Origin: Escherichia coli
GTDB taxonomy: Bacteria > Pseudomonadota > Gammaproteobacteria > Enterobacterales > Enterobacteriaceae
DNA: 64,000 bases
Assembly (NCBI RefSeq): GCF_003334305.1
Contig: NZ_QOWS01000006.1
Strand: one strand, 5' to 3'
The number at the start of each line of letters is the position of its first letter. Position 1 is the stretch's first letter. This document shows positions 10,829 through 15,988 of the stretch, piece by piece. Position numbers and translations under genes: made by a program. Under the pieces are notes generated by a model. That model saw only the letters and a list, made by a program, of their open reading frames with translations. It ran no database searches and was not told the DNA's origin.

Positions 10829-13258
10829 GTGTCGTCGTTGCCCGTTGCTGCCGTCTTATCTGAATTACTTACCGCTCTCGATTGTGCGCCGCAGGTATTA
10901 TTAAGTGCGCCGACCGGGGCCGGGAAATCAACCTGGCTGCCGCTGCAACTGCTGGCGCATCCCGGCATTAACGGGAAAATTATCCTGCTGGAGCCGCGTC
11001 GTCTGGCGGCGCGTAACGTCGCGCAACGGCTGGCGGAGCTGCTTAACGAAAAGCCAGGCGATACCGTTGGCTACCGGATGCGTGCGCAAAACTGCGTCGG
11101 GCCGAATACCCGCCTGGAAGTGGTTACCGAAGGCGTGCTGACGCGCATGATCCAGCGTGACCCGGAACTGAGCGGTGTTGGACTGGTGATCCTTGATGAA
11201 TTTCATGAGCGCAGCTTGCAGGCGGATTTGGCGTTGGCGCTGTTACTCGATGTGCAACAAGGTCTGCGTGATGACCTTAAACTGCTGATTATGTCGGCTA
11301 CCCTGGACAACGACCGCTTGCAGCAAATGCTGCCAGAAGCGCCTGTCGTCATCTCAGAAGGGCGCTCGTTTCCGGTTGAACGCCGTTATTTACCGCTGCC
11401 CGCGCATCAGCGTTTTGACGATGCCGTTGCGGTAGCCACCGCTGAAATGCTGCGTCAGGAAAGCGGATCATTACTGTTATTTTTACCTGGCGTCGGAGAA
11501 ATTCAGCGTGTGCAGGAACAACTGGCTTCGCGCATCGGCAGTGATGTATTGCTCTGCCCGCTGTATGGCGCGTTGTCGCTGAACGATCAGCGAAAAGCGA
11601 TCCTCCCGGCACCGCAAGGGATGCGCAAAGTGGTGCTGGCGACCAATATTGCTGAAACCAGTTTAACCATTGAAGGTATTCGTCTGGTGGTGGATTGTGC
11701 CCAGGAGCGTGTGGCGCGTTTTGATCCGCGCACGGGGCTTACGCGACTGATTACTCAACGCGTTAGCCAGGCATCCATGACGCAGCGTGCCGGGCGCGCC
11801 GGGCGTCTGGAGCCGGGTATCTGCCTGCATTTAATCGCCAAAGAACAAGCAGAACGCGCCGCGGCGCAAAGTGAACCGGAGATCTTACAAAGCGATCTTT
11901 CCGGTTTGCTGATGGAATTACTGCAATGGGGATGCAGCGATCCGGCGCAGATGAGCTGGCTGGATCAACCGCCAGTAGTGAATCTACTGGCCGCGAAACG
12001 TCTGTTACAAATGCTGGGGGCACTGGAGGGTGAACGGCTTAGTGCGCAAGGGCAAAAAATGGCAGCGCTGGGTAACGATCCGCGTTTAGCGGCAATGCTG
12101 GTTAGCGCGAAGAACGACGACGAAGCTGCTACCGCGGCAAAAATTGCCGCCATTCTCGAAGAGCCGCCACGGATGGGCAATAGTGACCTGGGCGTGGCGT
12201 TTTCGCGCAATCAACCAGCCTGGCAGCAACGTAGTCAGCAACTGTTAAAACGCTTAAACGTACGTGGCGGTGAGGCAGACAGTTCGCTTATCGCGCCGCT
12301 ACTTGCCGGGGCGTTTGCCGATCGCATTGCTCGTCGCCGTGGGCAAGATGGACGCTATCAACTGGCAAACGGCATGGGAGCGATGCTCGATGCCAACGAC
12401 GCGCTAAGCCGCCACGAATGGTTGATCGCACCGTTATTATTGCAGGGCAGCGCCTCGCCGGATGCGCGGATTTTACTGGCGCTGCCGGTCGATATTGATG
12501 AGTTAGTACAACGCTGCCCGCAGCTGGTACAGCAGTCTGACACTGTGGAGTGGGATGACGCGCAAGGTACGCTGAAAGCCTGGCGTCGGCTACAAATCGG
12601 TCAGTTGACGGTGAAAGTGCAGCCGCTGGCGAAACCGTCAGAAGACGAGTTGCATCAGGCGATGCTTAATGGCATCCGTGATAAAGGTTTAAGCGTGCTC
12701 AACTGGACGGCGGAAGCGGAACAGCTACGCTTGCGTTTGTTATGCGCCGCAAAGTGGTTGCCGGAATATGACTGGCCAGCGGTTGATGATGAAAGTTTAT
12801 TGGCGACGCTGGAAACGTGGCTGCTGCCACATATGACTGGCGTACATTCACTACGCGGCCTGAAATCACTCGACATTTATCAGGCACTACGCGGATTACT
12901 TGATTGGGGAATGCAGCAACGTCTGGATAGTGAATTGCCTGCGCATTACACTGTGCCGACGGGAAGCCGGATCGCCATTCGTTATCATGAAGATAACCCG
13001 CCCGCGCTGGCGGTGAGAATGCAAGAGATGTTTGGCGAGGCCACCAATCCGACGATCGCCCAGGGGCGCGTGCCGCTGGTGCTGGAGTTGCTTTCACCTG
13101 CCCAAAGGCCATTACAAATCACACGAGATTTGAGCGCCTTCTGGAAAGGAGCGTACCGTGAGGTGCAAAAAGAGATGAAAGGGCGTTATCCCAAACATGT
13201 CTGGCCGGACGACCCGGCAAATACTGCACCGACGCGACGGACGAAAAAGTATTCGTAA
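10829..13258 (+). CDS. hrpB: ATP-dependent RNA helicase HrpB (DEAH box)
   Basis: Track ORF 824 aa; probable GTG start at 10829 (VSSLPVAAVLSELL..., 809 aa); Walker A GAGKST and DEFH motif. Confidence 0.85.
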   Translation: MSSLPVAAVLSELLTALDCAPQVLLSAPTGAGKSTWLPLQLLAHPGINGKIILLEPRRLAARNVAQRLAELLNEKPGDTVGYRMRAQNCVGPNTRLEVVTEGVLTRMIQRDPELSGVGLVILDEFHERSLQADLALALLLDVQQGLRDDLKLLIMSATLDNDRLQQMLPEAPVVISEGRSFPVERRYLPLPAHQRFDDAVAVATAEMLRQESGSLLLFLPGVGEIQRVQEQLASRIGSDVLLCPLYGALSLNDQRKAILPAPQGMRKVVLATNIAETSLTIEGIRLVVDCAQERVARFDPRTGLTRLITQRVSQASMTQRAGRAGRLEPGICLHLIAKEQAERAAAQSEPEILQSDLSGLLMELLQWGCSDPAQMSWLDQPPVVNLLAAKRLLQMLGALEGERLSAQGQKMAALGNDPRLAAMLVSAKNDDEAATAAKIAAILEEPPRMGNSDLGVAFSRNQPAWQQRSQQLLKRLNVRGGEADSSLIAPLLAGAFADRIARRRGQDGRYQLANGMGAMLDANDALSRHEWLIAPLLLQGSASPDARILLALPVDIDELVQRCPQLVQQSDTVEWDDAQGTLKAWRRLQIGQLTVKVQPLAKPSEDELHQAMLNGIRDKGLSVLNWTAEAEQLRLRLLCAAKWLPEYDWPAVDDESLLATLETWLLPHMTGVHSLRGLKSLDIYQALRGLLDWGMQQRLDSELPAHYTVPTGSRIAIRYHEDNPPALAVRMQEMFGEATNPTIAQGRVPLVLELLSPAQRPLQITRDLSAFWKGAYREVQKEMKGRYPKHVWPDDPANTAPTRRTKKYS

Positions 13259-13267
13259 GGTTGGTTT

Positions 13268-13358
13268 TCTCCCTCTCCCTGTGGGAGAGGGCCGGGGTGA
13301 GGGCATCAGCGCGCACGTTCACCCTCACCCTAACCCTCTCCCTCAAGGGAGAGGGGAC
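13268..13358. repeat. composite GC-rich imperfect palindromic element (hairpin CCCTCTCCC/GGGAGAGGG plus GGGGTGAGGG, mirrored); REP/BoxC-like intergenic repeat, family uncertain
   Basis: Two hairpin units and inverted GGGTGAGGG/CCCTCACCC blocks read directly in the hrpB-mrcB spacer. Confidence 0.6.
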
Positions 13359-13453
13359 CGATCGAGCACAAATTTTGAGAGATATCTTCTTCTGTCTTGT
13401 AACAGAAGAACAGAAAATCGGGCTTTTGCGCCTGAATATTGCGGAGAAAAAGC

Positions 13454-15988
13454 ATGGCCGGGAATGACCGCGAGCCAATTGGACGCAAAGGGAAACCGAC
13501 GCGTCCGGTCAAACAAAAGGTAAGCCGTCGTCGTTACGAAGATGACGATGATTACGACGATTATGATGACTATGAGGATGAAGAACCGATGCCGCGCAAA
13601 GGTAAGGGCAAAGGCAAAGGGCGTAAGCCTCGTGGCAAACGCGGCTGGCTATGGCTGCTGTTAAAACTGGCTATCGTTTTTGCCGTGCTGATCGCCATTT
13701 ACGGCGTTTATCTCGATCAAAAAATTCGTAGCCGTATTGATGGCAAGGTCTGGCAACTGCCTGCGGCAGTTTATGGCCGAATGGTCAATCTTGAGCCAGA
13801 TATGACCATCAGCAAGAACGAGATGGTGAAGCTGCTGGAGGCGACTCAGTATCGTCAGGTGTCGAAAATGACCCGTCCTGGCGAATTTACCGTGCAGGCC
13901 AACAGCATTGAGATGATCCGCCGTCCGTTTGATTTCCCGGACAGTAAAGAAGGGCAGGTGCGTGCGCGTCTGACCTTTGATGGTGATCATCTGGCGACGA
14001 TCGTCAATATGGAGAACAACCGTCAGTTCGGTTTCTTCCGTCTTGATCCGCGCCTGATCACCATGATCTCTTCGCCAAACGGTGAGCAGCGTCTGTTTGT
14101 GCCGCGCAGTGGTTTCCCTGATTTGCTGGTGGATACTTTGCTGGCGACAGAAGACCGCCATTTCTACGAGCATGATGGGATCAGCCTCTACTCAATTGGG
14201 CGTGCGGTGCTGGCAAACCTGACCGCAGGTCGCACGGTGCAGGGTGCGAGTACGCTGACGCAACAGCTGGTGAAAAACCTGTTCCTCTCCAGCGAGCGCT
14301 CTTACTGGCGTAAAGCGAACGAAGCCTACATGGCGCTGATCATGGACGCGCGTTACAGCAAAGACCGTATTCTTGAGCTGTATATGAACGAGGTGTATCT
14401 CGGTCAGAGCGGCGACAACGAAATCCGCGGCTTCCCGCTGGCAAGCTTGTATTACTTTGGTCGCCCGGTAGAAGAGCTAAGCCTCGACCAGCAGGCGCTG
14501 TTAGTCGGTATGGTGAAAGGGGCGTCCATCTACAACCCGTGGCGTAACCCGAAACTGGCGCTGGAGCGACGTAATCTGGTGCTGCGTCTGCTGCAACAGC
14601 AACAGATTATTGATCAAGAACTCTATGACATGTTGAGTGCACGTCCGCTGGGGGTTCAGCCGCGCGGTGGGGTAATCTCTCCACAGCCAGCCTTTATGCA
14701 ACTGGTGCGTCAGGAGCTGCAGGCAAAACTGGGCGATAAGGTAAAAGATCTCTCCGGCGTGAAGATCTTCACTACCTTTGACTCGGTGGCCCAGGACGCG
14801 GCAGAAAAAGCCGCCGTGGAAGGCATTCCGGCACTGAAGAAACAGCGTAAGTTGAGCGATCTTGAAACTGCGATTGTGGTCGTCGACCGCTTTAGTGGTG
14901 AAGTTCGTGCGATGGTCGGAGGTTCTGAGCCGCAGTTTGCGGGCTACAACCGTGCGATGCAGGCGCGTCGTTCGATTGGTTCCCTTGCAAAACCAGCGAC
15001 TTATCTGACGGCTTTAAGCCAGCCGAAAATCTATCGCCTGAACACGTGGATTGCCGATGCGCCAATCGCGCTGCGTCAGCCGAATGGCCAGGTCTGGTCA
15101 CCGCAGAACGATGACCGTCGTTATAGCGAAAGCGGCAGAGTGATGCTGGTGGATGCGTTGACCCGTTCGATGAACGTGCCGACGGTAAATCTGGGGATGG
15201 CGCTGGGGCTGCCTGCAGTTACGGATACCTGGATCAAACTGGGCGTACCGAAAGATCAGCTGCATCCGGTTCCGGCGATGCTGCTGGGGGCGTTGAACTT
15301 AACGCCAATCGAAGTGGCGCAGGCGTTCCAGACCATCGCCAGCGGTGGTAACCGTGCACCGCTTTCTGCACTGCGTTCGGTAATCGCGGAAGATGGCAAG
15401 GTGCTGTATCAGAGCTTCCCGCAGGCAGAACGCGCTGTTCCGGCGCAGGCGGCGTATCTGACACTATGGACCATGCAGCAGGTGGTACAACGTGGTACGG
15501 GTCGTCAGCTTGGGGCGAAATACCCGAACCTGCATCTGGCAGGGAAAACAGGGACTACCAACAATAACGTAGATACCTGGTTTGCAGGCATTGACGGCAG
15601 CACGGTGACCATCACCTGGGTAGGCCGTGATAACAACCAGCCGACCAAACTGTATGGAGCCAGCGGGGCAATGTCGATTTATCAGCGTTATCTGGCTAAC
15701 CAGACGCCAACGCCGCTGAATCTTGTTCCGCCAGAAGATATTGCAGATATGGGCGTGGACTACGACGGCAACTTTGTTTGCAGCGGTGGCATGCGTGTCT
15801 TGCCGGTCTGGACCAGCGATCCGCAATCGCTGTGCCAGCAGAGCGAGATGCAGCAGCAGCCGTCAGGCAATCCGTTTGATCAGTCTTCTCAGCCGCAGCA
15901 ACAGCCGCAACAGCAACCTGCTCAGCAAGAGCAGAAAGACAGCGACGGTGTAGCCGGTTGGATCAAGGATATGTTTGGTAGTAATTAA
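13454..15988 (+). CDS. mrcB: penicillin-binding protein 1B (bifunctional glycosyltransferase/transpeptidase)
   Basis: Track ORF 849 aa; PBP1b starts [19 protein letters not shown] (844 aa) with Shine-Dalgarno GGAGA upstream; acidic/basic N-terminal tail and Q/P-rich C-terminus. Confidence 0.9.

What the first reader, a model, noticed from the sequence alone, without database searches (positions are those of the whole stretch)
13454..13640. Highly charged low-complexity N-terminus of PBP1b
The N-terminus encodes an acidic run ([17 protein letters not shown]) followed by a basic Gly/Lys run ([16 protein letters not shown]) before the membrane anchor; an internal Met at codon 46 lies between them, and the protein ends in a Gln/Pro-rich tail. 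This agrees with known PBP1b isoforms and is noted only as a sequence oddity.
Basis: partly seen in the sequence, partly recalled or inferred. Interest (0 to 1): 0.12.

Follow-up and report, generated by a model that had tools for sequence, protein, structure and literature searches.

The report
Charged cytoplasmic tail of PBP1b
This is the well-known charged N-terminal tail of the E. coli cell-wall synthase PBP1b, whose two start codons give a long form that is drawn to the division site and a short form that is not, so the finding is real but ordinary.

Summary
Window 13454-15988 (+) is E. coli mrcB/ponB (PBP1b, 844 aa). Its first 64 codons encode a basic block (residues 1-27, net +8), the acidic run Y28-E44 (net -13), Met46, then the Gly/Lys-rich basic run (residues 45-64, net +10) before the membrane helix. 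The charge clustering is far beyond chance.

Met1 gives the alpha isoform and Met46 the gamma isoform (Kato 1984; Broome-Smith 1985). Ribosome profiling shows the internal start in E. coli and Salmonella. A 2026 paper shows that the alpha-only N-terminal peptide recruits PBP1b to midcell, probably through FtsA.

New here, but incremental:
- In 108 Enterobacterales species the codon at the acid-to-basic boundary is ATG, GTG or TTG in 104.
- When the residue there is Val, the codon is GTG in 30 of 31.
- A Shine-Dalgarno GAGG is embedded in the last Glu/Asp codons.

So the dual start is conserved across the order. The acidic tract varies in length (in-frame indels even within E. coli) but keeps its composition, which fits a disordered spacer.

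Side observation: the Gln/Pro-rich C-terminal linker ends in a nearly invariant [11 protein letters not shown] motif that is absent from all solved structures.

The parts
13443..13446 (+). Shine-Dalgarno GGAG of the alpha (full-length) start
   Evidence: Read directly. It lies 7 nt before the ATG. Anti-SD duplex -6.6 kcal/mol.
13454..15988 (+). mrcB/ponB coding sequence (PBP1b alpha, 844 aa, plus stop)
   Evidence: NCBIfam NF007061 scores 1735 bits. PDB 3VMA, 3FWL and 5FGZ match residues 53/55/58-804, with only E591D and I782V differences from the crystallised K-12 sequence.
13454..13495 (+). N-pep, residues 1-14 ([14 protein letters not shown]): the alpha-only peptide reported to bind FtsA
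   Evidence: Identical to the K-12 peptide used in PMC13423804. Conserved in homologues that were found without reference to this motif.
13454..13534 (+). N-terminal basic block, residues 1-27, net charge +8
   Evidence: Across 100 distinct orthologous tails the median is +8, range +5 to +10.
13535..13585 (+). Acidic Tyr-interspersed run, residues 28-44 ([17 protein letters not shown]), net charge -13
   Evidence: It is a codon repeat of period 9/18. In orthologues its length is 10-36 aa and its charge -6 to -22. In-frame indels occur within E. coli.
13574..13578 (+). Shine-Dalgarno GAGGA of the gamma start, embedded in Glu41-Asp42 codons
   Evidence: Anti-SD duplex -6.1 kcal/mol. GAGG starts at -15 in 69 of 105 orthologues. 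Glu codons at -5/-4 are 87% GAG against 47% further upstream. The segment is unpaired in the RNA minimum-energy fold.
13589..13591 (+). Internal in-frame start codon ATG (Met46), start of the gamma isoform
   Evidence: Literature. The equivalent codon is ATG, GTG or TTG in 104 of 108 species.
13598..13645 (+). Juxtamembrane basic Gly/Lys run, residues 49-64 ([16 protein letters not shown]); residues 45-64 carry net +10; present in both isoforms
   Evidence: Period-6 repeat GCAAAG at 13596-13620. One GK unit is lost in strain LR14. In orthologues the gamma-tail charge is +4 to +11, median +8.
13646..13714 (+). Transmembrane helix, about residues 65-87
   Evidence: Hydrophobic segment [23 protein letters not shown]. 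Pfam PBP1_TM PF14812 matches residues 1-79, E 1.9e-26. Included in PDB 3VMA.
15836..15946 (+). C-terminal Gln/Pro-rich linker, about residues 795-831
   Evidence: 19 Gln/Pro in 30 residues; no shuffle of 20,000 reaches this. Hypervariable in length and sequence in 68 orthologues. Residues beyond 804 are absent from all PDB entries.
15947..15979 (+). Nearly invariant C-terminal motif [11 protein letters not shown], residues 832-842
   Evidence: Alignment A1: V833, W836, I837, M840, F841 and G842 are invariant; G832, A834, G835 and K838 are at least 90% conserved. The motif regex matches 67 of 68 complete orthologues. Function unknown.

Best explanation
The region encodes the intrinsically disordered cytoplasmic tail of the bifunctional peptidoglycan synthase PBP1b (mrcB). 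One mRNA carries two in-frame starts.

- Initiation at ATG 13454 gives alpha-PBP1b. Its tail has four parts in order: a conserved 14-residue N-terminal peptide within a basic block (+8), an acidic Tyr-studded tract (-13), a basic Gly/Lys juxtamembrane patch (+10), and the membrane helix.
- Initiation at ATG 13589 (Met46) gives gamma-PBP1b. This start is served by a GAGGA Shine-Dalgarno written into the last Glu/Asp codons of the acidic tract. Gamma keeps only the basic juxtamembrane patch.

Shown by others: both starts are used, and only alpha is enriched and more active at the division site. That enrichment needs the N-terminal peptide (R6) and most likely works by binding FtsA.

Shown here: the internal start codon and its Shine-Dalgarno are under purifying selection throughout Enterobacterales. 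The three-block charge layout is conserved in composition while tract length drifts by codon-repeat slippage.

Inferred:
- The basic patch next to the helix is the positive-inside topology and anionic-lipid contact element shared by both isoforms.
- The acidic tract is a flexible, membrane-repelled spacer that holds the FtsA-binding peptide about 45-70 residues from the bilayer.
- The 3' end of the acidic tract doubles as the ribosome-binding site that sets the alpha:gamma ratio.
For: Identity:
- mrcB lies between hrpB and fhuA, the NCBIfam equivalog is well above its cutoff, and the match to the crystallised protein is near-identical.

Isoforms and function, from the literature:
- PMC13423804: alpha starts at codon 1 and gamma at codon 46. 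msfGFP-alpha is enriched at midcell and gamma is not. R6E abolishes the enrichment. AlphaFold-multimer predicts FtsA as the partner.
- Ribo-RET peaks at the mrcB internal start in E. coli (bioRxiv 10.1101/520783) and in Salmonella (PMC11005335).

- In 12 orthologues reached by protein search, every one has ATG or GTG at the acid-to-basic boundary, and all but the Providencia locus have an SD-like site.
- In 108 species-level loci the boundary codon is ATG in 70, GTG in 30, TTG in 4 and non-start in 4.
- Boundary Val is GTG in 30 of 31. Other Val codons in the same sequences are 41% GTG. Two invariant control Val columns are GTG in 14 of 30 and 2 of 21.
- Boundary Leu is TTG in 4 of 4, against 10% TTG elsewhere.
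- An SD core lies at -20..-4 in 91% of loci, against 35% of control windows inside the acidic tract. Mean anti-SD duplex is -6.8 kcal/mol against -2.8 kcal/mol.
- Glu codons at -5/-4 are 87% GAG, against 14-31% at -2/-3.

Charge blocks and drift:
- All three charge blocks are present in all 100 distinct tails.
- In-frame indels occur within E. coli without loss of Met46 or the SD.
- A distant homologue, P0086 (40% identity), has only a basic tail. This suggests the layout may be lineage-specific.
- The four species that lack a canonical internal start still keep the acidic tract. So the tract is not only a ribosome-binding site.
Against: - The authors themselves say the FtsA contact needs biochemical and structural validation.
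- No experiment has addressed the acidic tract or the Gly/Lys run separately. Their roles as spacer and anchor are inference from composition, position and conservation pattern.
- The 108 loci were selected with a DNA pattern that encodes [10 protein letters not shown]-pep invariance in that set is therefore circular, and species without N-pep are not sampled.
- The species are phylogenetically related, so the binomial and Fisher P values overstate independence.
- A single ATG-to-Val mutation necessarily yields GTG. Only the retention of GTG across deep clades counts as evidence of selection.
- Four of 108 species lack a canonical internal start, so the gamma form is not indispensable.
- The AlphaFold2 model was too poor (mean pLDDT 42) to say anything firm about disorder.
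Confidence: 0.88

Rival explanations
1. The acidic and Gly/Lys runs are functionally neutral low-complexity expansions. Replication slippage in codon repeats produces them, and they are tolerated in a disordered tail.
For: - Tandem codon repeats are present.
- In-frame one-codon and three-codon indels occur within E. coli: DDDD to DDD, and loss of one GK unit.
- Tract length ranges from 10 to 36 aa among species and there is no positional sequence conservation.
Against: - Every one of 100 distinct tails, from more than 30 genera, keeps an acidic block (charge -6 or more negative) flanked by two basic blocks. The basic blocks have narrow charge ranges, +5 to +10 and +4 to +11.
- Interspersed Tyr/Phe residues recur, median 3 per tract.
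- Neutral repeats would be expected to be lost in some lineages.
Confidence: 0.08
2. The acidic run exists mainly for the RNA. GA-rich Glu/Asp codons would give an unstructured standby site and Shine-Dalgarno for the gamma start, and the protein-level acidity would be a by-product.
For: - The SD GAGGA lies inside Glu41-Asp42 codons.
- GAG is strongly preferred at codons -5/-4.
- The SD segment is unpaired in the RNA minimum-energy fold.
Against: - Only the last ~5 codons are needed for an SD, yet the tracts are 10-36 codons long.
- Pseudescherichia vulneris, Escherichia sp. ESNIH1, Kluyvera intermedia and the Plautia stali symbiont lack a canonical internal start but still keep the acidic tract.
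- Asp (GAY) codons and Tyr codons, which contribute nothing to an SD, dominate the upstream part of the tract.
- The folding z-score is unremarkable at -1.7.
Confidence: 0.1
3. The acidic block is a specific interaction or regulatory module rather than a passive spacer. It could fold back on the juxtamembrane basic patch, shielding it from anionic lipids in alpha but not in gamma. Or it could bind a basic partner in the divisome.
For: - Charge segregation is strong: +8, -13, +10.
- Acidic-block charge correlates negatively with N-block charge across species, Spearman -0.50.
- PMC11005335 suggests the polar region may give alternative modes of membrane interaction.
Against: - There is no positional conservation inside the tract, and length varies more than 3-fold.
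- Net alpha-tail charge is not held constant; it ranges from -6 to +11.
- Acidic charge shows no correlation with the summed flanking positive charge, rho -0.13.
- No partner is known. The correlation is not corrected for phylogeny.
Confidence: 0.15

Closest known systems
E. coli K-12 PBP1b alpha/gamma isoforms (ponB/mrcB; Kato et al. 1984; Broome-Smith et al. 1985; Chalut et al. 2001; PMC13423804, 2026)
   Same: It is the same gene. The first 80 residues and their DNA are identical to K-12 over the stretch compared. Synteny is the same, hrpB-mrcB-fhuA. The start at codon 46 is the same.
   Different: Only allelic differences: E591D and I782V relative to the crystallised K-12 protein. The window matches O157:H7-type strains at 100% over the 381-nt query 13380-13760.
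Other bacterial genes with in-frame internal starts that give two proteoforms (infB IF2 long and short forms; clpB long and short forms)
   Same: There is one mRNA, a second in-frame start with its own Shine-Dalgarno inside the coding sequence, and both products are made. Ribo-RET detected all three genes together. The clpB internal start is a GTG at Val149, like the GTG variants of mrcB in Pantoea, Erwinia and Klebsiella.
   Different: In mrcB the alternative start removes a disordered targeting peptide of a membrane protein rather than a folded N-terminal domain. The catalytic parts are identical in both forms.
Cytoplasmic N-terminal tails of Gram-positive class A PBPs that bind GpsB
   Same: A short peptide in the cytoplasmic tail of a class A PBP links the synthase to the division machinery. 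PMC13423804 draws this parallel in its discussion. The abstract of PMC5111876 (listed) says GpsB interacts with PBP1.
   Different: The partner differs (GpsB, not FtsA) and the motif is unrelated. No acidic tract or second start is known there; that statement is from my own knowledge and was not tested here.
FtsZ C-terminal peptide plus disordered C-terminal linker
   Same: The layout is a conserved short peptide ligand tethered by a linker of variable length and sequence but conserved composition. N-pep is predicted to occupy the FtsA site that binds the FtsZ C-terminal peptide.
   Different: There is no sequence relationship. The PBP1b linker is strongly acidic and is anchored to the membrane at its far end.

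Membership tests
PBP1b (MrcB), class A penicillin-binding protein | Full-length match to the curated equivalog model, above its cutoff | tested here: met
   NF007061 scores 1735 bits against a cutoff of 1120. TIGR02071 PBP_1b scores 1248 bits against 717.75.
PBP1b (MrcB), class A penicillin-binding protein | Glycosyltransferase and transpeptidase modules with catalytic residues (E233; S510-x-x-K513), plus the UB2H domain | tested here: met
   PDB 3VMA, 3FWL and 5FGZ align over residues 53-804 with only two substitutions, and the UB2H chain 6FZK matches residues 107-200. E233, S510 and K513 are invariant in alignment A1. The roles of these residues come from my own knowledge of the family.
PBP1b (MrcB), class A penicillin-binding protein | Chromosomal context hrpB-mrcB-fhuA, as in E. 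coli K-12 | tested here: met
   hrpB also lies upstream in the Salmonella, Yersinia, Serratia, Providencia and Erwinia loci.
Dual-start gene (in-frame internal translation initiation) | In-frame start codon with a Shine-Dalgarno at functional spacing | tested here: met
   ATG at 13589, with GAGGA at 13574-13578. Anti-SD duplex is -6.1 kcal/mol, comparable to the annotated start at -6.6 kcal/mol.
Dual-start gene (in-frame internal translation initiation) | Start-codon identity conserved even where the encoded amino acid changes | tested here: met
   104 of 108 species have ATG, GTG or TTG. Val is GTG in 30 of 31 and Leu is TTG in 4 of 4. Control Val columns vary freely at the third codon position.
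Dual-start gene (in-frame internal translation initiation) | Initiating ribosomes and two protein products observed experimentally | not testable with these tools
   Literature only. Ribo-RET peaks are reported in E. coli and Salmonella. The alpha and gamma bands are documented by references 37-39 of PMC13423804.
FtsA-binding N-terminal peptide of alpha-PBP1b (N-pep) | Conserved first ~14 residues including R6, P8, I9, G10 and R11 | tested here: met
   [14 protein letters not shown] is present in the window. The same motif appears in homologues retrieved without using it as the query. It matches the description in PMC13423804 section 11.
FtsA-binding N-terminal peptide of alpha-PBP1b (N-pep) | Physical binding to FtsA and midcell recruitment | not testable with these tools
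   Reported in PMC13423804 from localisation, POLAR-type recruitment assays and AlphaFold-multimer. The authors call for further validation.

The most novel reading that the evidence does not exclude
PBP1b may carry a tethered short peptide at each end, with each low-complexity tract serving as its tuned tether. At the N-terminus the FtsA-binding peptide sits on the acidic tract. At the C-terminus the nearly invariant periplasmic motif [11 protein letters not shown] (residues 832-842) sits on the hypervariable Gln/Pro linker. The motif is missing from every crystallised or 'functional' 58-804 construct. I found it in no paper of the searchable library. It could be a second, undescribed docking or membrane-binding peptide. 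Separately, the acidic tract could be an active electrostatic switch that distinguishes alpha from gamma, rather than a passive spacer.
Probability: 0.25. Interest if true: 0.45.

Novelty: already known. Interest (0 to 1): 0.12.

Why it matters
PBP1b is a major cell-wall synthase and a beta-lactam target. Its two isoforms were an unexplained curiosity for 40 years, until the alpha-specific tail was tied to division-site fortification in 2025-26.

For the scan, the point is that this finding is a correct re-discovery of textbook biology and not a lead.

The comparative results here add modest support that the alpha/gamma ratio is a selected trait across Enterobacterales: start-codon identity is kept through Met/Val/Leu changes, and a Shine-Dalgarno is encoded in acidic codons. 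They also flag two parts of the protein that published work leaves untested: the acidic tract and the conserved C-terminal motif.

Tried and rejected
- AlphaFold2 on the full-length protein with 69 orthologues. Mean pLDDT was 42 and pTM 0.27, too poor to use. I note only that no secondary structure was assigned to residues 1-62 and that a short helix was drawn at 833-841. No fold search was run on it.
- Rfam scan of 13150-13750. It gave only sub-threshold miRNA-hairpin hits on the intergenic palindrome and a MicF hit at E 0.99. I treat all of these as chance.
- Promoter and terminator scan of 13200-13700. It found nothing.
- RNA folding around the gamma start. The z-score of -1.7 gives no case for a special structure.
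- Literature on the beta form and OmpT. Nothing relevant is held. That beta is an OmpT cleavage product is my own recollection (Henderson, Dombrosky and Young 1994) and was not verified.
- Chalut et al. 2001 (PMC94866) is not held, so it is cited only through PMC13423804.
- Searches for the C-terminal motif string and for PBP1b together with Gln-rich or C-terminal tail terms. They found no description.
- Mechanical ORFs rejected as products of the open-frame listing: the TTG at 13439 that extends the frame by 5 codons, the + strand ORF 13197-13523, and the minus-strand ORFs 13119-13478 and 13661-14173. RefSeq and all orthologues start at MAGNDREP.
- The Pfam hit to the Madanin thrombin inhibitor (E 0.33) is compositional.
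Full report
**What is there**

Window 13454-15988 on the + strand is a single 844-codon gene. A 381-nt query across the finding (13380-13760) matches 5425 of 5426 complete E. coli genomes and is annotated mrcB everywhere. It is 100% identical to O157:H7-type strains and 99.5% identical to K-12. The neighbours are sfsA, thpR and hrpB upstream and fhuA and fhuC downstream, as in K-12. The protein scores 1735 bits on the NCBIfam equivalog for this enzyme, against a cutoff of 1120. It differs from the crystallised K-12 PBP1b only by E591D and I782V. All solved structures cover only residues 53/55/58 to 804. Neither the charged N-terminus nor the Gln/Pro-rich C-terminus has ever been seen in a structure.

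**Check of the observation**

The quoted peptides are at the stated place:
- ATG at 13454, with GGAG 7 nt upstream.
- Residues 1-27, net charge +8.
- [17 protein letters not shown], residues 28-44 (13535-13585), net charge -13.
- Pro45, then Met46 (ATG 13589-13591).
- [16 protein letters not shown], residues 49-64 (13598-13645). Residues 45-64 carry net +10.
- The membrane helix from W65.

The finding's end coordinate, 13640, is 5 nt short of the end of the basic run. The clustering is not chance. No shuffle of 20,000 reaches 13 acidic residues in 17. Six of 20,000 reach 10 basic residues in 16. None reaches 19 Gln/Pro in 30 for the C-terminal tail. At DNA level both runs are imperfect codon repeats. 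Pfam models residues 1-79 as PBP1_TM (PF14812, E 1.9e-26).

**What is already known**

The gene has long been known to give two products from two starts, alpha from codon 1 and gamma from codon 46. This rests on Kato 1984, Broome-Smith 1985 and Chalut 2001, cited as references 37-39 of PMC13423804.
- Retapamulin ribosome profiling shows an initiation peak at the internal site in E. coli (bioRxiv 10.1101/520783).
- The same is seen in Salmonella, where the extension is 42 residues and peptides unique to the long form were detected (PMC11005335).
- PMC13423804 (Nat Microbiol 2026; preprint 2025) shows that only alpha is enriched and more active at the division site. This needs the N-terminal peptide and R6. 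FtsA is the predicted partner, at the pocket that binds the FtsZ C-terminal peptide. The first 14 residues are conserved in enterobacteria.

A protein search with residues 1-260 returned 106 mostly partial homologues. By eye they share one layout:
- M[AS]G[ND][10 protein letters not shown].
- A basic stretch ending in RRR.
- An acidic tract studded with Tyr or Phe.
- Met or Val at the boundary.
- A basic Lys/Arg/Gly/Pro run, then the membrane helix.

Several database gene calls begin exactly at the internal Met. A 40%-identical homologue (P0086) has only a basic tail.

DNA for 12 orthologues showed ATG or GTG at the boundary in every case. All but the Providencia locus also had an SD-like site upstream.

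This gave 108 usable 5' ends from Escherichia, Salmonella, Citrobacter, Enterobacter, Klebsiella, Pantoea, Erwinia, Serratia, Yersinia, Pectobacterium, Hafnia and others. Results:
- **Boundary codon.** ATG in 70, GTG in 30, TTG in 4, and not a start codon in 4. The four exceptions are Pseudescherichia vulneris and Escherichia sp. ESNIH1 (GCG), Kluyvera intermedia (CGT) and a Plautia stali symbiont (GTA).
- **Val codons.** Where the residue is Val the codon is GTG in 30 of 31. Other Val codons in the same sequences are 41% GTG. Two invariant Val columns used as controls are GTG in 14 of 30 and 2 of 21.
- **Leu codons.** Where the residue is Leu the codon is TTG in 4 of 4, against 10% elsewhere.
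- **Shine-Dalgarno.** An SD core lies at -20..-4 in 91% of loci, against 35% of control windows inside the acidic tract. The mean anti-SD duplex is -6.8 kcal/mol, as strong as the annotated start (-6.5), against -2.8 for controls. GAGG most often starts at -15, as in the window.
- **Synonymous sites.** Glu codons at positions -5/-4 are 87% GAG, against 14-31% at -2/-3 and 47% further upstream.

Together these are synonymous-site signatures of selection on the internal start and its ribosome-binding site.

Caveats:
- The loci were chosen through the N-pep motif, so N-pep invariance in this set is circular.
- The species are related, so the P values (4.5e-11 and 4.8e-14) are not independent-sample probabilities.
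- ATG mutates to Val only through GTG, so the argument rests on retention of GTG across deep clades such as Pantoea, Erwinia and Tatumella.

**Low-complexity tracts**

Across 100 distinct tails:
- N block: 25-34 aa, charge +5 to +10.
- Acidic block: 10-36 aa, charge -6 to -22, median 3 aromatic residues.
- Gamma tail: 6-23 aa, charge +4 to +11.
- Distance from N-pep to the helix: 44-70 residues, median 49.

Within E. coli, 335 of 5425 genomes are below 99% identity over the first 207 nt. The two I inspected carry in-frame codon-repeat indels: DDDD to DDD, and loss of one GK unit. Both keep Met46 and GAGGA. This pattern of conserved composition and position, drifting length and no positional conservation is what a disordered spacer shows, not a folded or sequence-specific module. 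The four species without a canonical internal start still keep the acidic tract. So the tract is not merely the ribosome-binding site of gamma.

**Mechanism**

Shown by others or here:
- There are two starts.
- The alpha-only N-peptide drives midcell recruitment.
- The internal start and its SD are conserved across the order.

Inferred:
- The Gly/Lys/Arg patch next to the helix is the positive-inside anchor common to both forms.
- The acidic tract is a flexible, membrane-repelled tether that lets the N-peptide reach FtsA.
- The last Glu/Asp codons of the tract double as the SD that sets the isoform ratio.

The rivals cannot be excluded for the acidic tract, but each fits the data less well. 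They are neutral slippage, a purely RNA-level role, and an active electrostatic or binding module.

**Side observations**

- **C-terminus.** In 68 complete orthologues the Gln/Pro-rich linker is hypervariable. The last residues, [11 protein letters not shown], are nearly invariant: V833, W836, I837, M840, F841 and G842 are invariant. The motif lies beyond residue 804, the end of all structural and many biochemical constructs. I found no mention of it in the searchable library.
- **hrpB-mrcB spacer.** It holds an ~85-nt GC-rich palindrome at 13271-13355. A 117-nt query is present in 3510 of 5426 E. coli genomes, at 1-5 places per genome. The element is absent from this spacer in strain TUM14759.

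**Verdict**

It is already known biology with a recently published function. Interest is low. The incremental results are order-wide conservation of the gamma start at synonymous sites, and the flagging of two untested elements, the acidic tract and the C-terminal motif.

Noticed in passing
window 15947-15979 (residues 832-842); alignment A1: The Gln/Pro-rich C-terminal linker of PBP1b is hypervariable among 68 Enterobacterales orthologues, but it ends in a nearly invariant motif, [11 protein letters not shown]. The motif lies beyond residue 804, so it is absent from all PDB entries and from the standard 58-804 constructs. No paper in the searchable library contains the motif string. Its hydrophobic spacing (W, I, M, F at i, i+1, i+4, i+5) suggests a short amphipathic helix.
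   Followed up: partly
window 13271-13355 (hrpB-mrcB spacer): An ~85-nt GC-rich imperfect palindrome, with arms 13277-13303 and 13322-13348 that are 81% complementary. A 117-nt query around it is found at 80% coverage or more in 3510 of 5426 E. coli genomes, at 1-5 places per genome. It is missing from this spacer in strain TUM14759, whose spacer is 93 nt instead of 195 nt. It looks like a dispersed intergenic palindromic repeat with presence/absence polymorphism. The Rfam hits are only sub-threshold hairpin look-alikes.
   Followed up: partly
L013 (E. coli TUM14759) and L014 (E. coli LR14), mrcB codons 28-60; also L043 and L093: There is in-frame codon-repeat length polymorphism inside E. coli in both charged runs: DDDD to [11 protein letters not shown] to KGKGKG, and shorter YDD arrays. 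All variants keep Met46 and its Shine-Dalgarno. 335 of 5425 genomes are below 99% identity over the first 207 nt.
   Followed up: partly
L035 (Pseudescherichia vulneris), L049 (Escherichia sp. ESNIH1), L081 (Kluyvera intermedia), L108 (Plautia stali symbiont): These four species have no canonical start codon at the position equivalent to Met46 (GCG, GCG, CGT, GTA) but keep the acidic tract. They may be natural alpha-only lineages.
   Followed up: no
L005 (Yersinia pestis CP001589), L006 (Serratia rubidaea LR590463), L004, L009: In several assemblies mrcB is called as two or more consecutive ORFs (for example 165 aa plus 667 aa in Y. pestis D182038). This suggests frameshifts, pseudogenes or sequencing errors. 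It also explains why so many database hits are N-terminal fragments.
   Followed up: no
codons -15/-16 relative to the internal start, in 104 distinct orthologous DNA tails: A second local peak of GAG over GAA usage (74-85%) sits near the start of the acidic tract, about 45 nt upstream of the gamma start. It could be shared ancestry or another purine-rich signal. It remains unexplained.
   Followed up: no
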